Source: an uncultured Actinomycetes bacterium (lineage in GTDB: Bacteria > Actinomycetota > UBA4738 > HRBIN12). From it: a stretch of DNA of 64,000 nt. Location: NCBI GenBank assembly GCA_963810915.1, contig CAWEPH010000002.1, forward strand, positions 57,002 through 121,001, given 5' to 3'. This document shows, one piece after another, positions 11,893 to 15,753 of the stretch (position 1 is the stretch's first letter; the number at the start of each line of letters is the position of its first letter). A model generated the notes under the pieces. That model ran no database searches, was not told the origin of the DNA, and worked only from the letters and a program-made list of their open reading frames with translations. Made by a program: the position numbers and the translations under genes.

Positions 11893-13311
11893 GTGGACCG
11901 TCCCGATCCCGCCGAGATCGACGCCGTCATCGAGCTCACCGCGCGCGAGGCCGCCGCGTACCTGAAGGGCATCGCCGATCGACCGGTGCGCGATCCTCGG
12001 GCCGACGAGGTCGCCGCGGGGTTCGGCGGCCCGCTCCCCGAGCAGGGCATCGGCGCCGTCGGCGCGCTCGAGGAGCTGCTCGGCGGCATCGACGGCGCGG
12101 TGCACTCCGCGGGTCCCAAGTTCTTCCACTTCGTCGACGGCGGGACGACGCCCGCCGCGCTCGGGGCGGACTGGCTCACCTCGGCGCTCGACCAGAACCC
12201 CGGCGCCTGGGTCTCCTCCCCCCTCGCCGGTCGGCTCGAGCAGGTGGCGATCGAATGGCTCAAGGAGCTGTTCGGCCTGCCGGCTACGTGGGGCGGCGTG
12301 CTCACGACCGGCGCGACGATGGCCAACTTCGTGGCCCTCGCGTGCGCGCGACGATGGTGCGCCGAGCGGGCCGGCGTCGACGTCGACGAGCTCGGCCTGG
12401 CCGCGGCGCCGCCGATCACGGTGTTCGGGAGCGGGTACACCCACCCGAGCGACGTCAAGGCGCTCGGGATGCTGGGGGTCGGGCGCGCGAACGTGCGCAA
12501 GCTGAGCCGCGACGCCGTGGGACGCGTCGACCTCGCCGCGATGGAGGCGGCGCTCGCCGCGCTGGACGGCGCGCCCGCGATCGTGATCGGCAGCGCGGGC
12601 GAGGTGAACGCCGGCGACTTCGACCCGCTCGTCGAGATGGCGGAGCTCGCCGCGCGCCACGGGGCCTGGTTCCACGTGGACGGCGCCTTCGGGCTGTTCG
12701 CCGCGCTCTCGCCGCGGACCGCGCACCTGGTGGAGGGCGTCGAGCGCGCCGACTCGGTGATCGCCGACGGCCACAAGTGGCTGAACGTGCCCTACGAGAA
12801 CGGGTTCGCGTTCGTGCGCGACCCGAAGCTGCTCCCGGCGGTCTTCGGCTCCGGCGCCGCCTATCTCCCCGACATCGACGAGCCCCAGCCGAACTGGGGC
12901 TACCTCGGTCCGGAGATGTCGCGACGGGCGCGCGCGTTCCCGGTCTGGGCGACGCTGCGCGCCTACGGGCGCGAGGGACATCGCGCGATCGTCGAGCACG
13001 ACCTGGATCTCGCGCAGCGCCTGGCGGCGGCCGTGGACGCGGCGCCCGACCTCGAGCGCCTGGCGGAGGTGCCGCTGAACATCGTCTGCTTCCGCTACCG
13101 GCCGCCCGGATCGACGGACGGTCCCGAGCTCGACGACCTGAACCGGCGGATCGGCGAGGCGGCGCTCGAGGACGGCCGCGTCTTCTTCGGTTCCACCGAC
13201 TACGGCGGCCGGGTGGCGTTCCGTCCGGCGCTCGTGAACTGGCGGACCCGCGAGGAAGACGTGGACCTGGTGCCCCAGGTCGTCCGCGAGCTCGGCGCGA
13301 AGCTCGCGTAG
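11893..13311 (+). CDS. Group II PLP-dependent amino-acid decarboxylase
   Basis: GVLTTGATMAN, WFHVDGAFG, DGHKWLNVPY (PLP lysine), EMSRRAR, NIVCFRY. Confidence 0.95.
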   Translation: MDRPDPAEIDAVIELTAREAAAYLKGIADRPVRDPRADEVAAGFGGPLPEQGIGAVGALEELLGGIDGAVHSAGPKFFHFVDGGTTPAALGADWLTSALDQNPGAWVSSPLAGRLEQVAIEWLKELFGLPATWGGVLTTGATMANFVALACARRWCAERAGVDVDELGLAAAPPITVFGSGYTHPSDVKALGMLGVGRANVRKLSRDAVGRVDLAAMEAALAALDGAPAIVIGSAGEVNAGDFDPLVEMAELAARHGAWFHVDGAFGLFAALSPRTAHLVEGVERADSVIADGHKWLNVPYENGFAFVRDPKLLPAVFGSGAAYLPDIDEPQPNWGYLGPEMSRRARAFPVWATLRAYGREGHRAIVEHDLDLAQRLAAAVDAAPDLERLAEVPLNIVCFRYRPPGSTDGPELDDLNRRIGEAALEDGRVFFGSTDYGGRVAFRPALVNWRTREEDVDLVPQVVRELGAKLA

Positions 13312-13331
13312 GAACCCGCCCACCTCCGTTG

Positions 13332-13360
13332 TTGCCTTAGCGCCCGACCTGCCGCACCAT
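13332..13360 (+). promoter_or_regulatory. Putative sigma70-type promoter for the intergenic RNA/mini-ORF
   Basis: TTGCCT (13332-13337), 17-nt spacer, CACCAT (13355-13360); predicted start near 13367. Confidence 0.45.
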
Positions 13361-13391
13361 GTCGGGTACGAGAGGAAGGAGGTGGTCCAAC

Positions 13392-13433
13392 TTGCATGAA
13401 CAGCAGGAGACCCTCGAGGTGACTGGCTGTTAG
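13392..13433 (+). CDS. Mini-ORF, 13 aa MHEQQETLEVTGC
   Basis: TTG start directly after an extended SD, TAG stop inside a small hairpin; alternative ATG 13396-13422 gives MNSRRPSR. Confidence 0.4.
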   Translation: MHEQQETLEVTGC

Positions 13434-13582
13434 CCGTCCCTCGCGGGCCAGGGCCACCCGCCCAGCCCGCTTGCCGGGCGACCGGCAGAATCCACACCAG
13501 CTCACCGACCTCACGGGTTCCGGCTGGTCTACCGGACGAAGCCTCCTCGGAGGCCGAAGTATCCGTGAGGCTGATAGGCAGC

Positions 13583-13617
13583 GAACGGGTCGGGTCCGAC
13601 ACGGACCCGGCCCGTTC
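13583..13617. terminator. 16-bp hairpin, probable bidirectional terminator
   Basis: GAACGGGTCGGGTCCG-ACA-CGGACCCGGCCCGTTC, 3 nt from the convergent stop at 13620. Confidence 0.75.
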
Positions 13618-13619
13618 CG

Positions 13620-14273
13620 CTACCCGATCGGGTCGCCGCCGGGGGGGATCGGCGACGAACCGGCCATCGAGGGAGCGCTCCGGGCGTCGGCGACGCGACG
13701 CGCCCGCCGGGAGCGCACCTGTAGGACGACGAGGAACGTGGACGCCGCGATCGCCGCGTCCACCCAGATCACCCGCCTGAGGTTGACAAGGGCCGCGAGC
13801 GTCCTCTGGATCAGGGCCAGCCGCGGGCTCGTCGGCATCAGCTGCTCGTGCTCATCGATCCAGACGTAGGCGGGGACGAACACCCACTGCGTCAATACGG
13901 CCGCGAGGAGCAGCATCACGACGGCACCGGCTATCAGGGCCCGCACCTCGGCGGTGGTCAAGGGGCGCACCTCGATCCACGACAGGAGTCCTACCGCCGC
14001 ACCAGCCACCCATGCGAGTCCGGCGACGACGCATCCGAGCGTGATCGAATCGACGGTCGCGACGGGCCCGCCGCCTCCGCCGGCCAGCGTGCCCCCTACC
14101 AGCCCGGCGAGCCCAAGGAGCCCCGCGAGGCCGATCGTCTTGGCCGATCCGTAGCCTGTCCACCCGGAGAGCATCAACCCGAGCGCCACCACGAACCAGC
14201 CCAGCACGAGGAAGAGCGAGACGAAGAAGAGGTGATCCCCCGAGGCGACGGCGCCCGCTGCGAAGAGCATCAA
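13620..14273 (-). CDS. Hypothetical multi-pass membrane protein
   Basis: About 5 hydrophobic segments; SD GAGGAAGG upstream. Confidence 0.65.
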   Translation of the reverse strand: MMLFAAGAVASGDHLFFVSLFLVLGWFVVALGLMLSGWTGYGSAKTIGLAGLLGLAGLVGGTLAGGGGGPVATVDSITLGCVVAGLAWVAGAAVGLLSWIEVRPLTTAEVRALIAGAVVMLLLAAVLTQWVFVPAYVWIDEHEQLMPTSPRLALIQRTLAALVNLRRVIWVDAAIAASTFLVVLQVRSRRARRVADARSAPSMAGSSPIPPGGDPIG

Positions 14274-14365: not shown

Positions 14366-15571
14366 CTACCCCAGGTACCGCACGACGTACCGGCCGCCCG
14401 AGACGACGATCTTCCCGTGCGCGACGCGGACATCTGTGGCCTGCCCCGGCGCCCCCGCCGTGTGCGTGTAGCCGGTCCCCGCGAAGGTCGTGTCGCGCGC
14501 TCCCGACGACGTCAGTCGCTCCACCCCGAAGCAGTACCCGTGTTGACCGTCGTCGCAGTAGTCGTCGATGCCGACGATGACCGTCTTCCCGCCCTGCAGG
14601 GCGACGCCGAACGGGTAGGAATCGGAGGATCCCCCGCCCGCGTCGTCGCCGAAGTACACGTTGCCGTCGAACCCGGCGTCGAGCGTTCCCGCCGGCGTGA
14701 AGCGCGCGACGAAACTACCGTCGTGATCACAGAAGTCGCGGCAGATCTCGCCCACCATCGAGACCCGGCCGGTCGTGGCGGAGACCGCAACATCTGTCGC
14801 CGTCGACGAGTCGTGCTGCGTGGCCGCCGCGGGATCGAGCCATGCGTACCCGGCAGATCCGTAGCTCGTGTCGAGCGATCCGCTCGGGAGGTACCGACCC
14901 ACGACGGCGCTGTTCCAATCCGGGGTCGCGCTCGGGAGGGCGCTCCCGGCCACGTAAACGGAGGCCGGGGAGACGGCGAGGGCGGTGACCTGACCGCAGA
15001 CGCCGCCGCCACCGAGACAGATCGACGAGATCTTGAACGCGCTACCGGAAGGCGACACCTTGGCCAGGCCGGTCCTCCCCACCGCGAACGTCCTCCCGTG
15101 CGGATCGACATCCATATCGACCAGTGGGATCCCGGTGTCGACGACGCCGGCGTCGCCGAACGTCCGGTCGAGCGAGCCGTTCGCGTTCAGCCGTTCGATC
15201 TGGCCGCCCTGAACACCGACGAGGACCTTGCGACCGATGACGGCGAGGCCCACCACGCGACCGGTCCCGGGAAGGAATCGCTTGCCCCAGACGGGATCGA
15301 CCGCGCCGTCGGCCGTGAAGCGGACCACGACCGGGCCCTTGGCGGAGGGGCTGAAGCCGCCGAGCAGGACGCGGTCGCGCTCGTCCACCTGGACGGACGT
15401 GTCGGCGTGGCTGACGTGGAAGAAGACGATGGCCGGCGCCACGACACCGCTCCTCACGATCCCGTCGCCACCGAACGTGGTATCGAGGTCACCCGCTGCA
15501 GCCTGCGCCGTTCCGGGCGGGACGCAGAGCACCAAGGCCAGGGTCCCGATCAGTGCGAGACGTCGTTTCAC
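14366..15571 (-). CDS. Secreted delta-60 repeat (beta-propeller) protein
   Basis: Signal peptide MKRRLALIG...AQA and repeats GDLDTTFGGDG, NGSLDRTFGDAG, GSLDTSYGSAG, GTLDAGFDG, GARDTTFAGTG; SD GGAGG. Confidence 0.9.
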   Translation of the reverse strand: MKRRLALIGTLALVLCVPPGTAQAAAGDLDTTFGGDGIVRSGVVAPAIVFFHVSHADTSVQVDERDRVLLGGFSPSAKGPVVVRFTADGAVDPVWGKRFLPGTGRVVGLAVIGRKVLVGVQGGQIERLNANGSLDRTFGDAGVVDTGIPLVDMDVDPHGRTFAVGRTGLAKVSPSGSAFKISSICLGGGGVCGQVTALAVSPASVYVAGSALPSATPDWNSAVVGRYLPSGSLDTSYGSAGYAWLDPAAATQHDSSTATDVAVSATTGRVSMVGEICRDFCDHDGSFVARFTPAGTLDAGFDGNVYFGDDAGGGSSDSYPFGVALQGGKTVIVGIDDYCDDGQHGYCFGVERLTSSGARDTTFAGTGYTHTAGAPGQATDVRVAHGKIVVSGGRYVVRYLG

Positions 15572-15753
15572 GGACCCGCCTCCCTGCCGACACCCTAGAT
15601 CTCCCTCATCCCACCGCACGAGTCGGACGAATGGGGGGCCTCGGTTCTTGCCCGCGCCTGGGCCTCCCTTAGGGCGGCCCTTACCTTCGCGGGCGTGTGA
15701 TGGACCCCGGCGGCGCATCGGCCGTCGCGCGATCCGGCTTGGGAGGCGGCAGC

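What the first reader, a model, noticed from the sequence alone, without database searches (positions are those of the whole stretch)
13367..13617. Unannotated structured RNA whose 5' end is a 17-nt complement of the 16S rRNA 3' end
Seen: the 308-nt gap between two convergent genes reads, on the + strand, TTGCCT-N17-CACCAT, then AGGAAGGAGGTGGTCCA (13373-13389), a mini-ORF, a stem with a GCGA (GNRA) tetraloop (13471-13488), a three-way junction (closing stem 13509-13518/13561-13570, arm TCCGG/CCGGA, arm GCCTC-CTCG-GAGGC, each arm followed by CGAA) and a 16-bp terminal hairpin. Established: the typical actinobacterial 16S 3' end has the reverse complement AGAAAGGAGGTGATCCA, so the tract could pair over all 17 nt, with both differences being G-U wobbles. 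Ordinary SD sites are much shorter. Inference: a stand-alone transcript that binds 30S subunits unusually tightly, for example a ribosome-sequestering or dual-function sRNA, or a very stable micropeptide mRNA. I do not recognise it as tmRNA, SRP, RNase P, 6S/Ms1, raiA or a known riboswitch or ribozyme. This organism's own 16S sequence is not in the window.
Basis: partly seen in the sequence, partly recalled or inferred. Interest (0 to 1): 0.85.

Follow-up and report, generated by a model that had tools for sequence, protein, structure and literature searches.

The report
Ribosome-docking small RNA, known family
This intergenic region encodes a diverged copy of a widespread but uncharacterised actinobacterial small RNA whose first bases are a near-perfect complement of the ribosome's 16S rRNA tail and which carries a tiny conserved reading frame.

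Summary
Window 13373-13389 pairs 17/17 (two G-U) with this genome's own 16S 3' tail. It is the only such site in the 3.36-Mb assembly apart from the rDNA antisense strand. The listed stems exist and covary.

The RNA is not a new family. A permissive Rfam scan gives a full-length, sub-threshold match to RF02471, Ms_IGR-5 (33.1 bits, cut-off 45, E 5.7e-6). A model built from this clade finds the bona fide RF02471 loci at identical coordinates. It matches 63 of 151 sampled genomes of the phylum.

Family-wide features:
- the 16-nt tail complement starts 6 nt from the 5' end, and only its U-facing positions vary, A<->G;
- a 12-14-codon ORF (here TTG 13392 to TAG 13433, not the ATG frame) keeps start, frame and stop in 54 of 54 published sequences;
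- its 3' half forms a covarying long-range helix.

Papers call IGR-5 expressed, ribosome-protected, NAD-capped and uncharacterised.

Best reading: a stand-alone RNA that docks 30S subunits and is remodelled by translation of its mini-ORF. The biological output is unknown. New member of a known kind. Interest 0.5.

The parts
13332..13360 (+). Putative promoter: -35 TTGCCT (13332-13337), 17-nt spacer, -10 CACCAT (13355-13360)
   Evidence: Read from sequence. Both hexamers are conserved and the spacer is variable in 30 homologs. The E. coli-type consensus scan found none. No transcription start was mapped here.
13368..13619 (+). The sRNA, about 250 nt: a diverged Ms_IGR-5 (RF02471) homolog. The 5' end is inferred at A13368.
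   Evidence: cmscan gives 13368-13562, 33.1 bits, E 5.7e-6, model 1-184. Own model R1 gives 168 bits at 13368-13510. Conservation starts here. RNA-library contigs cover 13393-13580.
13373..13389 (+). 5' tract AGGAAGGAGGTGGTCCA, complementary to the last 17 nt of the 16S rRNA
   Evidence: 17/17 pairs with the own 16S tail, -28.9 kcal/mol, unique in the genome. 16 nt are conserved in 54 of 54 published family members, with A<->G variation only at U-facing positions.
13392..13433 (+). Conserved mini-ORF: TTG...TAG, 13 codons (M/L-HEQQETLEVTGC)
   Evidence: A start-like codon lies 7-13 nt after GGAGG, and a stop lies exactly 3 codons after GAG GTG, in 54 of 54 published sequences (59 of 59 with the unpublished ones). 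Stops in the variable part: 1 of 43 distinct sequences in this frame, against 35 and 8 of 43 in the other frames.
13384..13412 (+). P0, tentative: GGTC 13384-87 pairs with GACC 13409-12, with the start codon in the loop
   Evidence: 4 pairs, 96.6% of cells paired, but only 1 pair has a double change. Short and mostly invariant.
13418..13506 (+). P1 long-range helix: GGTGACTGG 13418-26 (ORF codons 9-12) pairs with CCAGCTCACC 13497-13506
   Evidence: Helices 2 and 3 are 99.6% and 95.1% paired. The fifth pair is AU 34, GC 12, GU 4. The ninth pair is GC 28, CG 6, AU 4, UG 3, UA 1. An anchored count on 42 distinct sequences agrees.
13425..13435 (+). Ha: small hairpin GGCT-GTT-AGCC holding the stop codon
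   Evidence: A local hairpin at the stop codon recurs with different stem sequences in other clades. It overlaps P1 by 2 nt.
13443..13470 (+). Hb hairpin. GGGCCACC at 13451-58 (inner-stem 5' strand plus loop) is complementary to GGTGGTCC 13381-88 of the 5' tract.
   Evidence: All stem pairs have compensatory changes (helices 4 and 5). The tract-Hb duplex is -19.2 kcal/mol here. 40 of 53 family members reach -15 or below and 27 of 53 beat 95% of shuffles.
13472..13487 (+). Hc hairpin TGCCGG-GCGA-CCGGCA (GNRA-type loop)
   Evidence: Helix 6: all 6 of 6 pairs have compensatory changes, 92.9% paired. The loop is GCGA, GTGA or GAGA in most sequences of the genus.
13488..13496 (+). Conserved single-stranded joiner GAATCC(ACA)
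   Evidence: Near-invariant across the family, directly before the P1 3' strand.
13509..13570 (+). Three-way junction (3' domain). The arm-1 loop CTGGTCTA carries the conserved GGTC.
   Evidence: RNAalifold on 26 sequences: the closing-stem pairs carry many double changes, for example UA 18 / CG 6 / GC 1 and AU 13 / UA 5 / GC 4. The second arm is an insertion relative to the Rfam model (alignment).
13583..13617 (.). 16-bp GC-rich hairpin without a U tract: the likely terminator, shared with the convergent gene
   Evidence: Sequence. Compensatory changes in 7 of the 9 predicted pairs. No E. coli-type terminator was called.

Best explanation
This is the local, diverged copy of the actinobacterial sRNA family Ms_IGR-5 (Rfam RF02471). 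It is a single-copy, stand-alone transcript of about 250 nt with its own promoter and terminator.

Its first 5 nt are followed by a 16-17-nt single-stranded tract that pairs with the whole free 3' tail of the 16S rRNA. The tract therefore docks a 30S subunit at the extreme 5' end.

The docked subunit initiates at a start codon 9 nt downstream and translates a 13-codon ORF. The peptide itself is probably not the product that matters. The 3' half of the ORF is one strand of a conserved long-range helix (P1), and the stop codon sits in a small hairpin. Each passage of a ribosome must therefore open the core of the RNA. That frees the P1 partner and the conserved GAAUCC joiner.

In most lineages the tract can also pair with a 16S-tail-like segment in an internal hairpin.

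Shown: homology, conservation, covariation, unique 16S complementarity, and conserved ORF boundaries.

Inferred: 30S docking, translation, remodelling by the ribosome, and any downstream regulatory or stabilising effect.
For: Homology:
- Full-length RF02471 match, E 5.7e-6.
- The reciprocal model R1 hits 52 of 53 loci, including the RF02471 loci above the cut-off, at the same coordinates.
- RF02471 matches 44 of 151 sampled genomes of the phylum and R1 matches 63 of 151, nearly always one copy.

Stand-alone gene:
- Conservation starts after the -10 hexamer.
- Neighbouring genes vary.
- Exact RNA-library contigs from 3 studies cover the body only.

16S pairing:
- 17/17 pairs with the own tail, unique in the genome.
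- The tail sequence is found in 114 of 151 genomes of the phylum at 1 mismatch or fewer.
- In 54 published sequences, the six G positions that face C never vary. Five of the six purine positions that face U vary, and four of these five only between A and G.

ORF:
- Start, frame and stop are kept in 54 of 54 sequences despite indels of 1-9 nt.
- Three different stop codons occur.

Structure:
- 94% of cells are paired against 82.8% in shuffles.
- 22 of 29 pairs have double changes.
- Slid controls reach 48% at most.

Literature:
- Ribosome-protected reads on MS_IGR-5 in M. abscessus and M. smegmatis (passages of PMC4974804).
- Expressed in two Streptomyces species (passages).
- NAD-capped with a +1A start, and called 'uncharacterized' (passages of bioRxiv 10.1101/2021.12.14.472595).
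Against: - No binding, translation or phenotype data exist for this RNA or its family in what I could read.
- Rfam's gathering score is not reached (33.1 against 45 bits).
- 10 of 54 sequences have CTG and 1 has ATA at the start position, so initiation may be weak or unnecessary.
- The ORF's conserved half is also RNA helix, so its conservation is confounded.
- The thermodynamic optimum of the window RNA lacks P1. Enforcing P1 costs 5.6 kcal/mol, and the optimum partly pairs the GGAGG core.
- The P1 5' strand has several equally good partners by energy alone (median z -1.4).
- The alignment used for the pair counts was fitted to the structure, which favours it.
- Very long SD duplexes are generally thought to slow ribosome escape (recalled, no call).
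Confidence: 0.5

Rival explanations
1. 5' stabiliser only. The tract works like STAB-SD: a bound 30S (or stalled initiation complex) six nt from the 5' end blocks 5'-end-dependent decay by RNase J or RNase E. This makes a very stable conventional sRNA whose 3' domain does the regulating. The ORF is incidental.
For: The tract sits at a fixed 6 nt from the 5' end in all 54 sequences. RNase J is encoded in this genome (540.7 bits). The STAB-SD mechanism is documented (passages of PMC4113751). The M. smegmatis RNA also carries an NAD cap, another 5' protection.
Against: STAB-SD by definition does not direct initiation. Here a start-like codon at SD spacing and an in-frame stop are kept in 54 of 54 sequences. 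A 6-8-nt SD would be enough for protection, so 16 nt is unexplained.
Confidence: 0.2
2. Micropeptide mRNA. The product is the 13-aa peptide, and the long SD serves very high or stress-proof translation.
For: ORF boundaries are conserved. Ribosome footprints are reported. E-V is invariant and a T-x-E-V-x-x-x C-terminal pattern is kept.
Against: Residues 2-6 change freely even within the genus (E/S/R/T/K, Q/R/P/K, Q/L/D/H). The last three residues change together with the RNA pairing partner (A/T, G/A/V/D, C/R/S/G). GAG GTG never varies at synonymous sites across the phylum, which points to an RNA-level constraint. About 190 nt of conserved, covarying non-coding structure follow the ORF.
Confidence: 0.12
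3. 30S sponge or anti-SD mask. The RNA titrates the 16S tail of free 30S subunits and shifts translation away from SD-led mRNAs, for example towards leaderless ones.
For: It is the strongest 16S-tail complement in the genome and is conserved in the family.
Against: It is one gene copy per genome, and I saw no evidence of ribosome-scale abundance. The conserved ORF and stop imply that ribosomes leave by translating. The conserved 3' domain is unexplained.
Confidence: 0.1
4. Not a gene: chance structure in GC-rich DNA, or just the 3' UTR and terminator of the flanking genes.
For: The minus strand folds almost as well (z -4.61). One RNA-library contig bridges the end of the upstream gene and the RNA (record 3 of run X1).
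Against: 34 of 41 related genomes hold it. It is conserved across the phylum with compensatory changes. Neighbouring genes differ. Conservation begins at the predicted start, not at the upstream stop codon.
Confidence: 0.01

Closest known systems
Ms_IGR-5 sRNA (Rfam RF02471; IGR-5 / ncMSMEG15794c of Mycolicibacterium smegmatis)
   Same: The 5' tract is the same: the model consensus begins ACACAaGGAAGGAgGugGuCc. The mini-ORF position, the GAGGUG box, the GAAUCC joiner, the long-range helix and the 3' stem-loop with a GUCC-type loop are also shared. The match is full length and the reciprocal model hits.
   Different: It scores 33.1 bits against a cut-off of 45. The middle holds two hairpins (Hb, Hc) where mycobacteria have one long stem. 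The 3' domain has an extra arm, making a three-way junction (alignment). No function is described for the family in the papers I could read. The original 2013 paper is not held.
STAB-SD 5' mRNA stabiliser of Bacillus thuringiensis cry3A
   Same: [quoted passage not shown] A bound 30S blocks 5'-to-3' decay by RNase J1 (PMC4113751 passages). RNase J is present here.
   Different: STAB-SD does not direct initiation and sits in the leader of a long mRNA. Here a conserved start codon and 13-codon ORF follow, the duplex is about twice as long, and the RNA is a stand-alone sRNA.
Small RNAs that carry a short ORF: attenuator-derived rnTrpL with its 14-codon trpL (PMC6614838, search listing and abstract only); RNAIII/hld, SgrS/SgrT and SR1/SR1P (recalled)
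   Same: A short structured RNA with a translated mini-ORF, where translation and RNA structure interact.
   Different: No downstream gene is attenuated (the next gene is convergent and neighbours vary). The peptide is poorly conserved. No base-pairing target is known.
6C (B11) and other C-rich-loop sRNAs of Gram-positive bacteria
   Same: A conserved actinobacterial sRNA built around SD/anti-SD complementarity. Hb and the P1 3' strand carry 16S-tail-like CACC(UCC) motifs.
   Different: 6C displays anti-SD-like loops that bind mRNA SD sites (recalled). This RNA's defining element has the opposite polarity: an SD-like tract aimed at the ribosome itself.
tmRNA
   Same: A structured RNA with a short ORF that engages ribosomes.
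   Different: ARAGORN calls no tmRNA or tRNA and Rfam gives no tmRNA match. The ORF has its own SD and start codon.

Membership tests
Rfam RF02471 (Ms_IGR-5) | Bit score at or above the curated gathering score (45 bits) | tested here: not met
   33.1 bits. A same-genus genome reaches 41.7. This is an operational cut-off. The shortfall is explained by an inserted arm and a different middle domain (alignment).
Rfam RF02471 (Ms_IGR-5) | Significant end-to-end alignment to the family model | tested here: met
   Model positions 1-184 of 184. E 5.7e-6 in a 451-nt scan and 1.0e-5 against the whole genome.
Rfam RF02471 (Ms_IGR-5) | Reciprocal homology: a model of this clade finds accepted members at the same place | tested here: met
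   R1 hits 52 of 53 loci full length. L042 (68.3 Rfam bits) scores 72.9 bits. L034 (185.6 Rfam bits) scores 30.4 bits, E 2e-5. L039 was missed.
Rfam RF02471 (Ms_IGR-5) | Shared sequence signatures: 5' AGRRRGGAGGTGRTCC tract, GAGGTG box, GAATCC joiner | tested here: met
Rfam RF02471 (Ms_IGR-5) | Expressed as a discrete small RNA | tested here: inconclusive
   Exact contigs in RNA libraries of 3 studies cover 13393-13580 and not the downstream gene. Contigs cannot show ends or strand.
STAB-SD-type 5' stabiliser | SD-like sequence near the 5' end that pairs with the 16S 3' end | tested here: met
STAB-SD-type 5' stabiliser | Does not direct translation initiation | tested here: not met
   A start-like codon 7-13 nt downstream and a conserved ORF in 54 of 54 sequences. 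Actual initiation was not measured.
STAB-SD-type 5' stabiliser | Stabilises the RNA against RNase J | not testable with these tools
   Only the presence of an RNase J gene is shown.
Dual-function (peptide-coding) sRNA | Peptide sequence under purifying selection | tested here: inconclusive
   The N-terminal half is variable. The C-terminal half is conserved but coincides with RNA helices.
tmRNA | tRNA-like domain and tag ORF without a start codon | tested here: not met
   ARAGORN finds 0 genes in 13000-14000. No Rfam tmRNA match.

The most novel reading that the evidence does not exclude
The RNA is a trans-acting sensor of ribosome availability. Free 30S subunits bind the 16-nt tail complement and translate the mini-ORF. 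This displaces the tract from its internal 16S-tail mimic (Hb) and opens P1. The RNA's own anti-SD-like segments (CACC/CACCUCC) and the GAAUCC joiner are then exposed to act on other mRNAs or proteins. That would be a feedback link between ribosome supply and translation initiation, conserved across much of the Actinomycetota.
Probability: 0.15. Interest if true: 0.8.

Novelty: new member of a known kind. Interest (0 to 1): 0.5.

Why it matters
Ms_IGR-5 is found as a single copy in 63 of 151 sampled actinobacterial genomes, across many families. Yet it is still called 'uncharacterized' in the papers I could read.

This analysis shows three things about the family:
- Its defining feature is a wobble-tolerant complement of the entire 16S 3' tail, a few bases from the 5' end.
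- A mini-ORF with conserved boundaries runs into a covarying helix.
- Rfam's model misses whole clades, including this one.

That gives specialists concrete, cheap experiments on a conserved RNA in model organisms (M. smegmatis, Streptomyces). It is not a new class of RNA.

Tried and rejected
- The Rfam gathering scan of the whole window gave no match. The family appears only with the permissive scan.
- A second RF02471 hit in the genome (C6, 20 bits) is an ordinary gene start with a strong SD and a signal peptide, not a paralog.
- The E. coli-type promoter and terminator scan found nothing. This is uninformative for this phylum.
- An energy-only test of P1 failed. The ORF's GGUGR strand finds several equally good partners (median z -1.4 over 59 sequences), and the MFE structure omits P1. 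P1 rests on covariation only.
- Three RNA-library contigs end at 13393. I do not read this as an RNA end. The preceding 25 nt are shared by many species, and an assembly graph would break there.
- Parts without contig cover are not evidence of absence.
- ATG 13396 as the ORF start was rejected, because it is not conserved.
- A macrolide-type '+x+' arrest motif and amino-acid-sensing leader codons were looked for by eye. Neither is conserved.
- Synteny gave no functional hint. Neighbours differ, although some clades keep a local convergent gene.
- The search of earlier findings had nothing on this RNA.
- The original paper PMC3527728 is not held, and supplements are closed. I cannot say whether the 16S complementarity or the ORF was noted there.
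- My searches 'Ms_IGR-5', 'RF02471', 'IGR-5 + smegmatis' and 'extended Shine-Dalgarno + Actinobacteria + sRNA + small ORF' turned up no functional study.

Full report
**1. The observation**

The 308-nt gap lies between a PLP-dependent decarboxylase gene (11893-13311, +; Pfam PF00282, E 4e-50) and a convergent 217-aa ORF without Pfam match (13620-14273, -).

- TTGCCT-N17-CACCAT at 13332-13360;
- AGGAAGGAGGTGGTCCA at 13373-13389;
- a hairpin with a GCGA loop at 13472-13487;
- a three-way junction at 13509-13570;
- a 16-bp hairpin at 13583-13617.

The genome's own 16S gene lies on another contig. It ends GGCTGGATCACCTCCTTTCT, so the tract pairs at 17 of 17 positions with two G-U pairs.

I scanned both strands of all 15 contigs (3.36 Mb). 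Only two sites reach 17/17: the antisense of the rDNA itself and this tract. The predicted duplex is -28.9 kcal/mol, against -30.0 for the perfect complement. Nine sites reach 16/17, and the best of those is -23.9.

**2. What it is**

Rfam's gathering thresholds give nothing in the whole window. A permissive scan of 13250-13700 gives one strong candidate. It is RF02471, 'Actinobacteria sRNA Ms_IGR-5', at 13368-13562 on the + strand. The score is 33.1 bits (cut-off 45), E is 5.7e-6, and all 184 model positions are covered.

The family consensus begins ACACAaGGAAGGAgGugGuCc. That is the same 16S-complementary tract.

A DNA search finds the element in 34 of 41 related genomes, including 21 of 24 of the genus. 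RF02471 itself matches 44 of 151 genomes sampled across the phylum, 19 of them above the cut-off.

I built a covariance model from 25 published sequences of this order (R1: 144 positions, 29 pairs).
- It hits 52 of 53 loci full length. These include the loci that pass Rfam's cut-off, at identical start coordinates.
- It matches 63 of 151 genomes of the phylum, almost always once per genome.

The low Rfam score has a visible cause. This clade has two hairpins where mycobacteria have one long stem. It also has an extra arm in the 3' domain, which cmscan forces into mismatches (alignment).

The tallies include a few unpublished genomes. All alignments and pair counts below exclude them.

**3. A stand-alone gene**

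In 30 aligned homologs the two promoter hexamers are kept and the spacer between them varies freely. Solid conservation begins at the A 7 nt after the -10 hexamer (13368). That position is also where the Rfam model starts.

Flanking ORFs differ between loci, even within the genus.

Fourteen RNA-library runs from eleven studies hold part of the stretch. I laid four of them on 13000-14000.
- Exact or near-exact short contigs from three studies cover 13393-13556, 13393-13525 and 13393-13580.
- No contig covers 13680-14000.
- Contigs cannot give ends or strand, so this is only a hint of a discrete, comparatively abundant RNA.

ARAGORN finds no tmRNA or tRNA.

**4. Anatomy supported by comparison**

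(a) The 5' tract. I compared 54 published sequences.
- Positions 6-21 read R-G-R-R-R-G-G-A-G-G-U-G-R-U-C-C.
- The six G positions that face a C of the 16S tail never vary.
- Five of the six purine positions that face a U vary. Four of these five vary only between A and G (for example G 26 / A 28 at position 8); position 6 also shows one C and one U. Both A and G pair with U.
- The 16S tail itself is found in 114 of 151 genomes at 1 mismatch or fewer. The commonest second hit in those genomes is the antisense of this very tract.
- This is the pattern expected if the constraint is pairing to an invariant 16S tail.

(b) The mini-ORF. The conserved frame is TTG 13392 to TAG 13433 (L/M-HEQQETLEVTGC). 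It is not the ATG 13396 frame, whose ATG is ATA in many relatives.
- In 54 of 54 published sequences (59 of 59 with the unpublished ones), a start-like codon lies 7-13 nt after GGAGG.
- The frame is open, and a stop lies exactly three codons after an invariant GAG GTG.
- This holds although the distance from the tract to GAGGTG varies from 25 to 34 nt.
- The stop is TAG, TGA or TAA.
- Start codons are canonical in 43 sequences, CTG in 10 and ATA in 1.
- Among 43 distinct variable regions, 1 has a stop in the ORF frame, against 35 and 8 in the other two frames.
- The peptide is poorly conserved in residues 2-6, and in its last three residues it changes together with RNA pairing.

(c) Helices. 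The pair counts below come from the model-fitted alignment A3, a fit that leans towards the structure.
- 94.0% of cells pair, against 82.8% in shuffles (0 of 500 shuffles reach it).
- 22 of 29 pairs show double changes.
- Slid controls pair at 48% or less.
- The long-range helix P1 joins ORF codons 9-12 (13418-26) to 13497-13506. Its fifth pair is AU 34 / GC 12 / GU 4. Its ninth pair is GC 28 / CG 6 / AU 4 / UG 3 / UA 1.
- An alignment-free, anchored count on 42 distinct sequences agrees.
- Hb and Hc covary at every pair.
- P0 (13384-87 / 13409-12) is short and nearly invariant, so it is tentative.
- On a plain MAFFT alignment of 26 sequences, RNAalifold supports the closing stem of the junction and the terminator with many compensatory changes.

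(d) An internal partner for the tract. In most lineages the variable hairpin Hb carries a segment complementary to the 5' tract.
- Examples are GGACCACCUCC, GGGAUCACCUCCC and, in one case, all 16 nt.
- 40 of 53 sequences reach -15 kcal/mol or below, and 27 of 53 beat 95% of shuffles.
- In the window it is GGGCCACC (13451-58), with -19.2 kcal/mol and a shuffle fraction of 0.07.

**5. What is published**

- S. lividans and S. avermitilis transcriptome papers list Ms_IGR-5 as an expressed sRNA (passages read).
- An M. abscessus study notes significant ribosome-protected reads on the MS_IGR-5 homologs of M. abscessus and M. smegmatis (passage).
- A cold-stress study maps IGR-5 to ncMSMEG15794c (passage).
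- A preprint finds M. smegmatis IGR-5 NAD-capped, starting at an A, and calls it 'validated but yet uncharacterized' (passages).
- The 2013 discovery paper is not held, and supplements are closed.
- My four searches found no functional study and no mention of the 16S complementarity. I cannot say more than that.

**6. Mechanism**

The covariation-supported model leaves the tract and the start codon exposed. It places the second half of the ORF inside P1 and the stop codon in a small hairpin. I therefore favour (0.5) a ribosome-docking RNA whose core is opened each time the mini-ORF is translated. The peptide would be a by-product.

Weaknesses:
- There is no biochemical evidence.
- 11 of 54 sequences have non-canonical starts.
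- The ORF's conservation is confounded with helices.
- The MFE structure lacks P1, which costs 5.6 kcal/mol when enforced.
- P1's strand has alternative partners by energy.

Rivals:
- A pure STAB-SD-like 5' stabiliser (0.2). RNase J is present and the mechanism is documented in PMC4113751. But STAB-SD does not initiate translation, and 16 nt is excessive for protection.
- A micropeptide mRNA (0.12).
- A 30S sponge (0.1).
- Chance structure or a 3' UTR (0.01).

**7. Verdict**

The element is a diverged member of a known but uncharacterised family, so it is a new member of a known kind.

The family-wide 16S-tail complement, the conserved ORF boundaries and P1 are concrete leads worth testing in model actinobacteria.

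Noticed in passing
L002 (G000:C6:650356-650512, minus strand): The second, weak RF02471 hit in the genome (20 bits) is an ordinary gene start: GAAGGAGGTG, then ATG, then a signal-peptide-like N-terminus. It shows that the Rfam model is partly driven by the SD tract.
   Followed up: yes
G135:C65:23445-23460 (inside that genome's copy of the RNA): One family member carries, about 90 nt into the RNA, a 15-of-16 copy of the 16S 3' tail (GGATCACCTCCCTTCT). It is complementary to that RNA's own 5' tract. This is an extreme case of the internal tail mimic seen in Hb.
   Followed up: partly
Several genomes (for example G143, G048, G092, G172, G095, G051): A recurrent one-mismatch variant, GGCTCACCTCCTTTCT, occurs away from the rDNA and away from this RNA. 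It may be another conserved element related to the 16S tail.
   Followed up: no
window 13393: Contigs from three independent RNA-library studies all stop at 13393. This is most likely an assembly-graph break after the 5' segment shared between species, not an RNA end.
   Followed up: no
window 13620-14273 (-) and 14366-15718 (-): The convergent 217-aa ORF is hydrophobic and has no Pfam match. The next gene has DUF5122 beta-propeller repeats.
   Followed up: no
G061 (C17 and C126) and G024 (C12 and C13): Two genomes show two copies of the RNA on separate contigs. They could be true duplications or assembly redundancy.
   Followed up: no
L057, L058 (family f9) and L045-L054 (family f14): Within some families the RNA keeps one convergent neighbour: a LigA-like C-terminus in f9 and a conserved unnamed gene in f14. 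Across the phylum the neighbours differ.
   Followed up: partly
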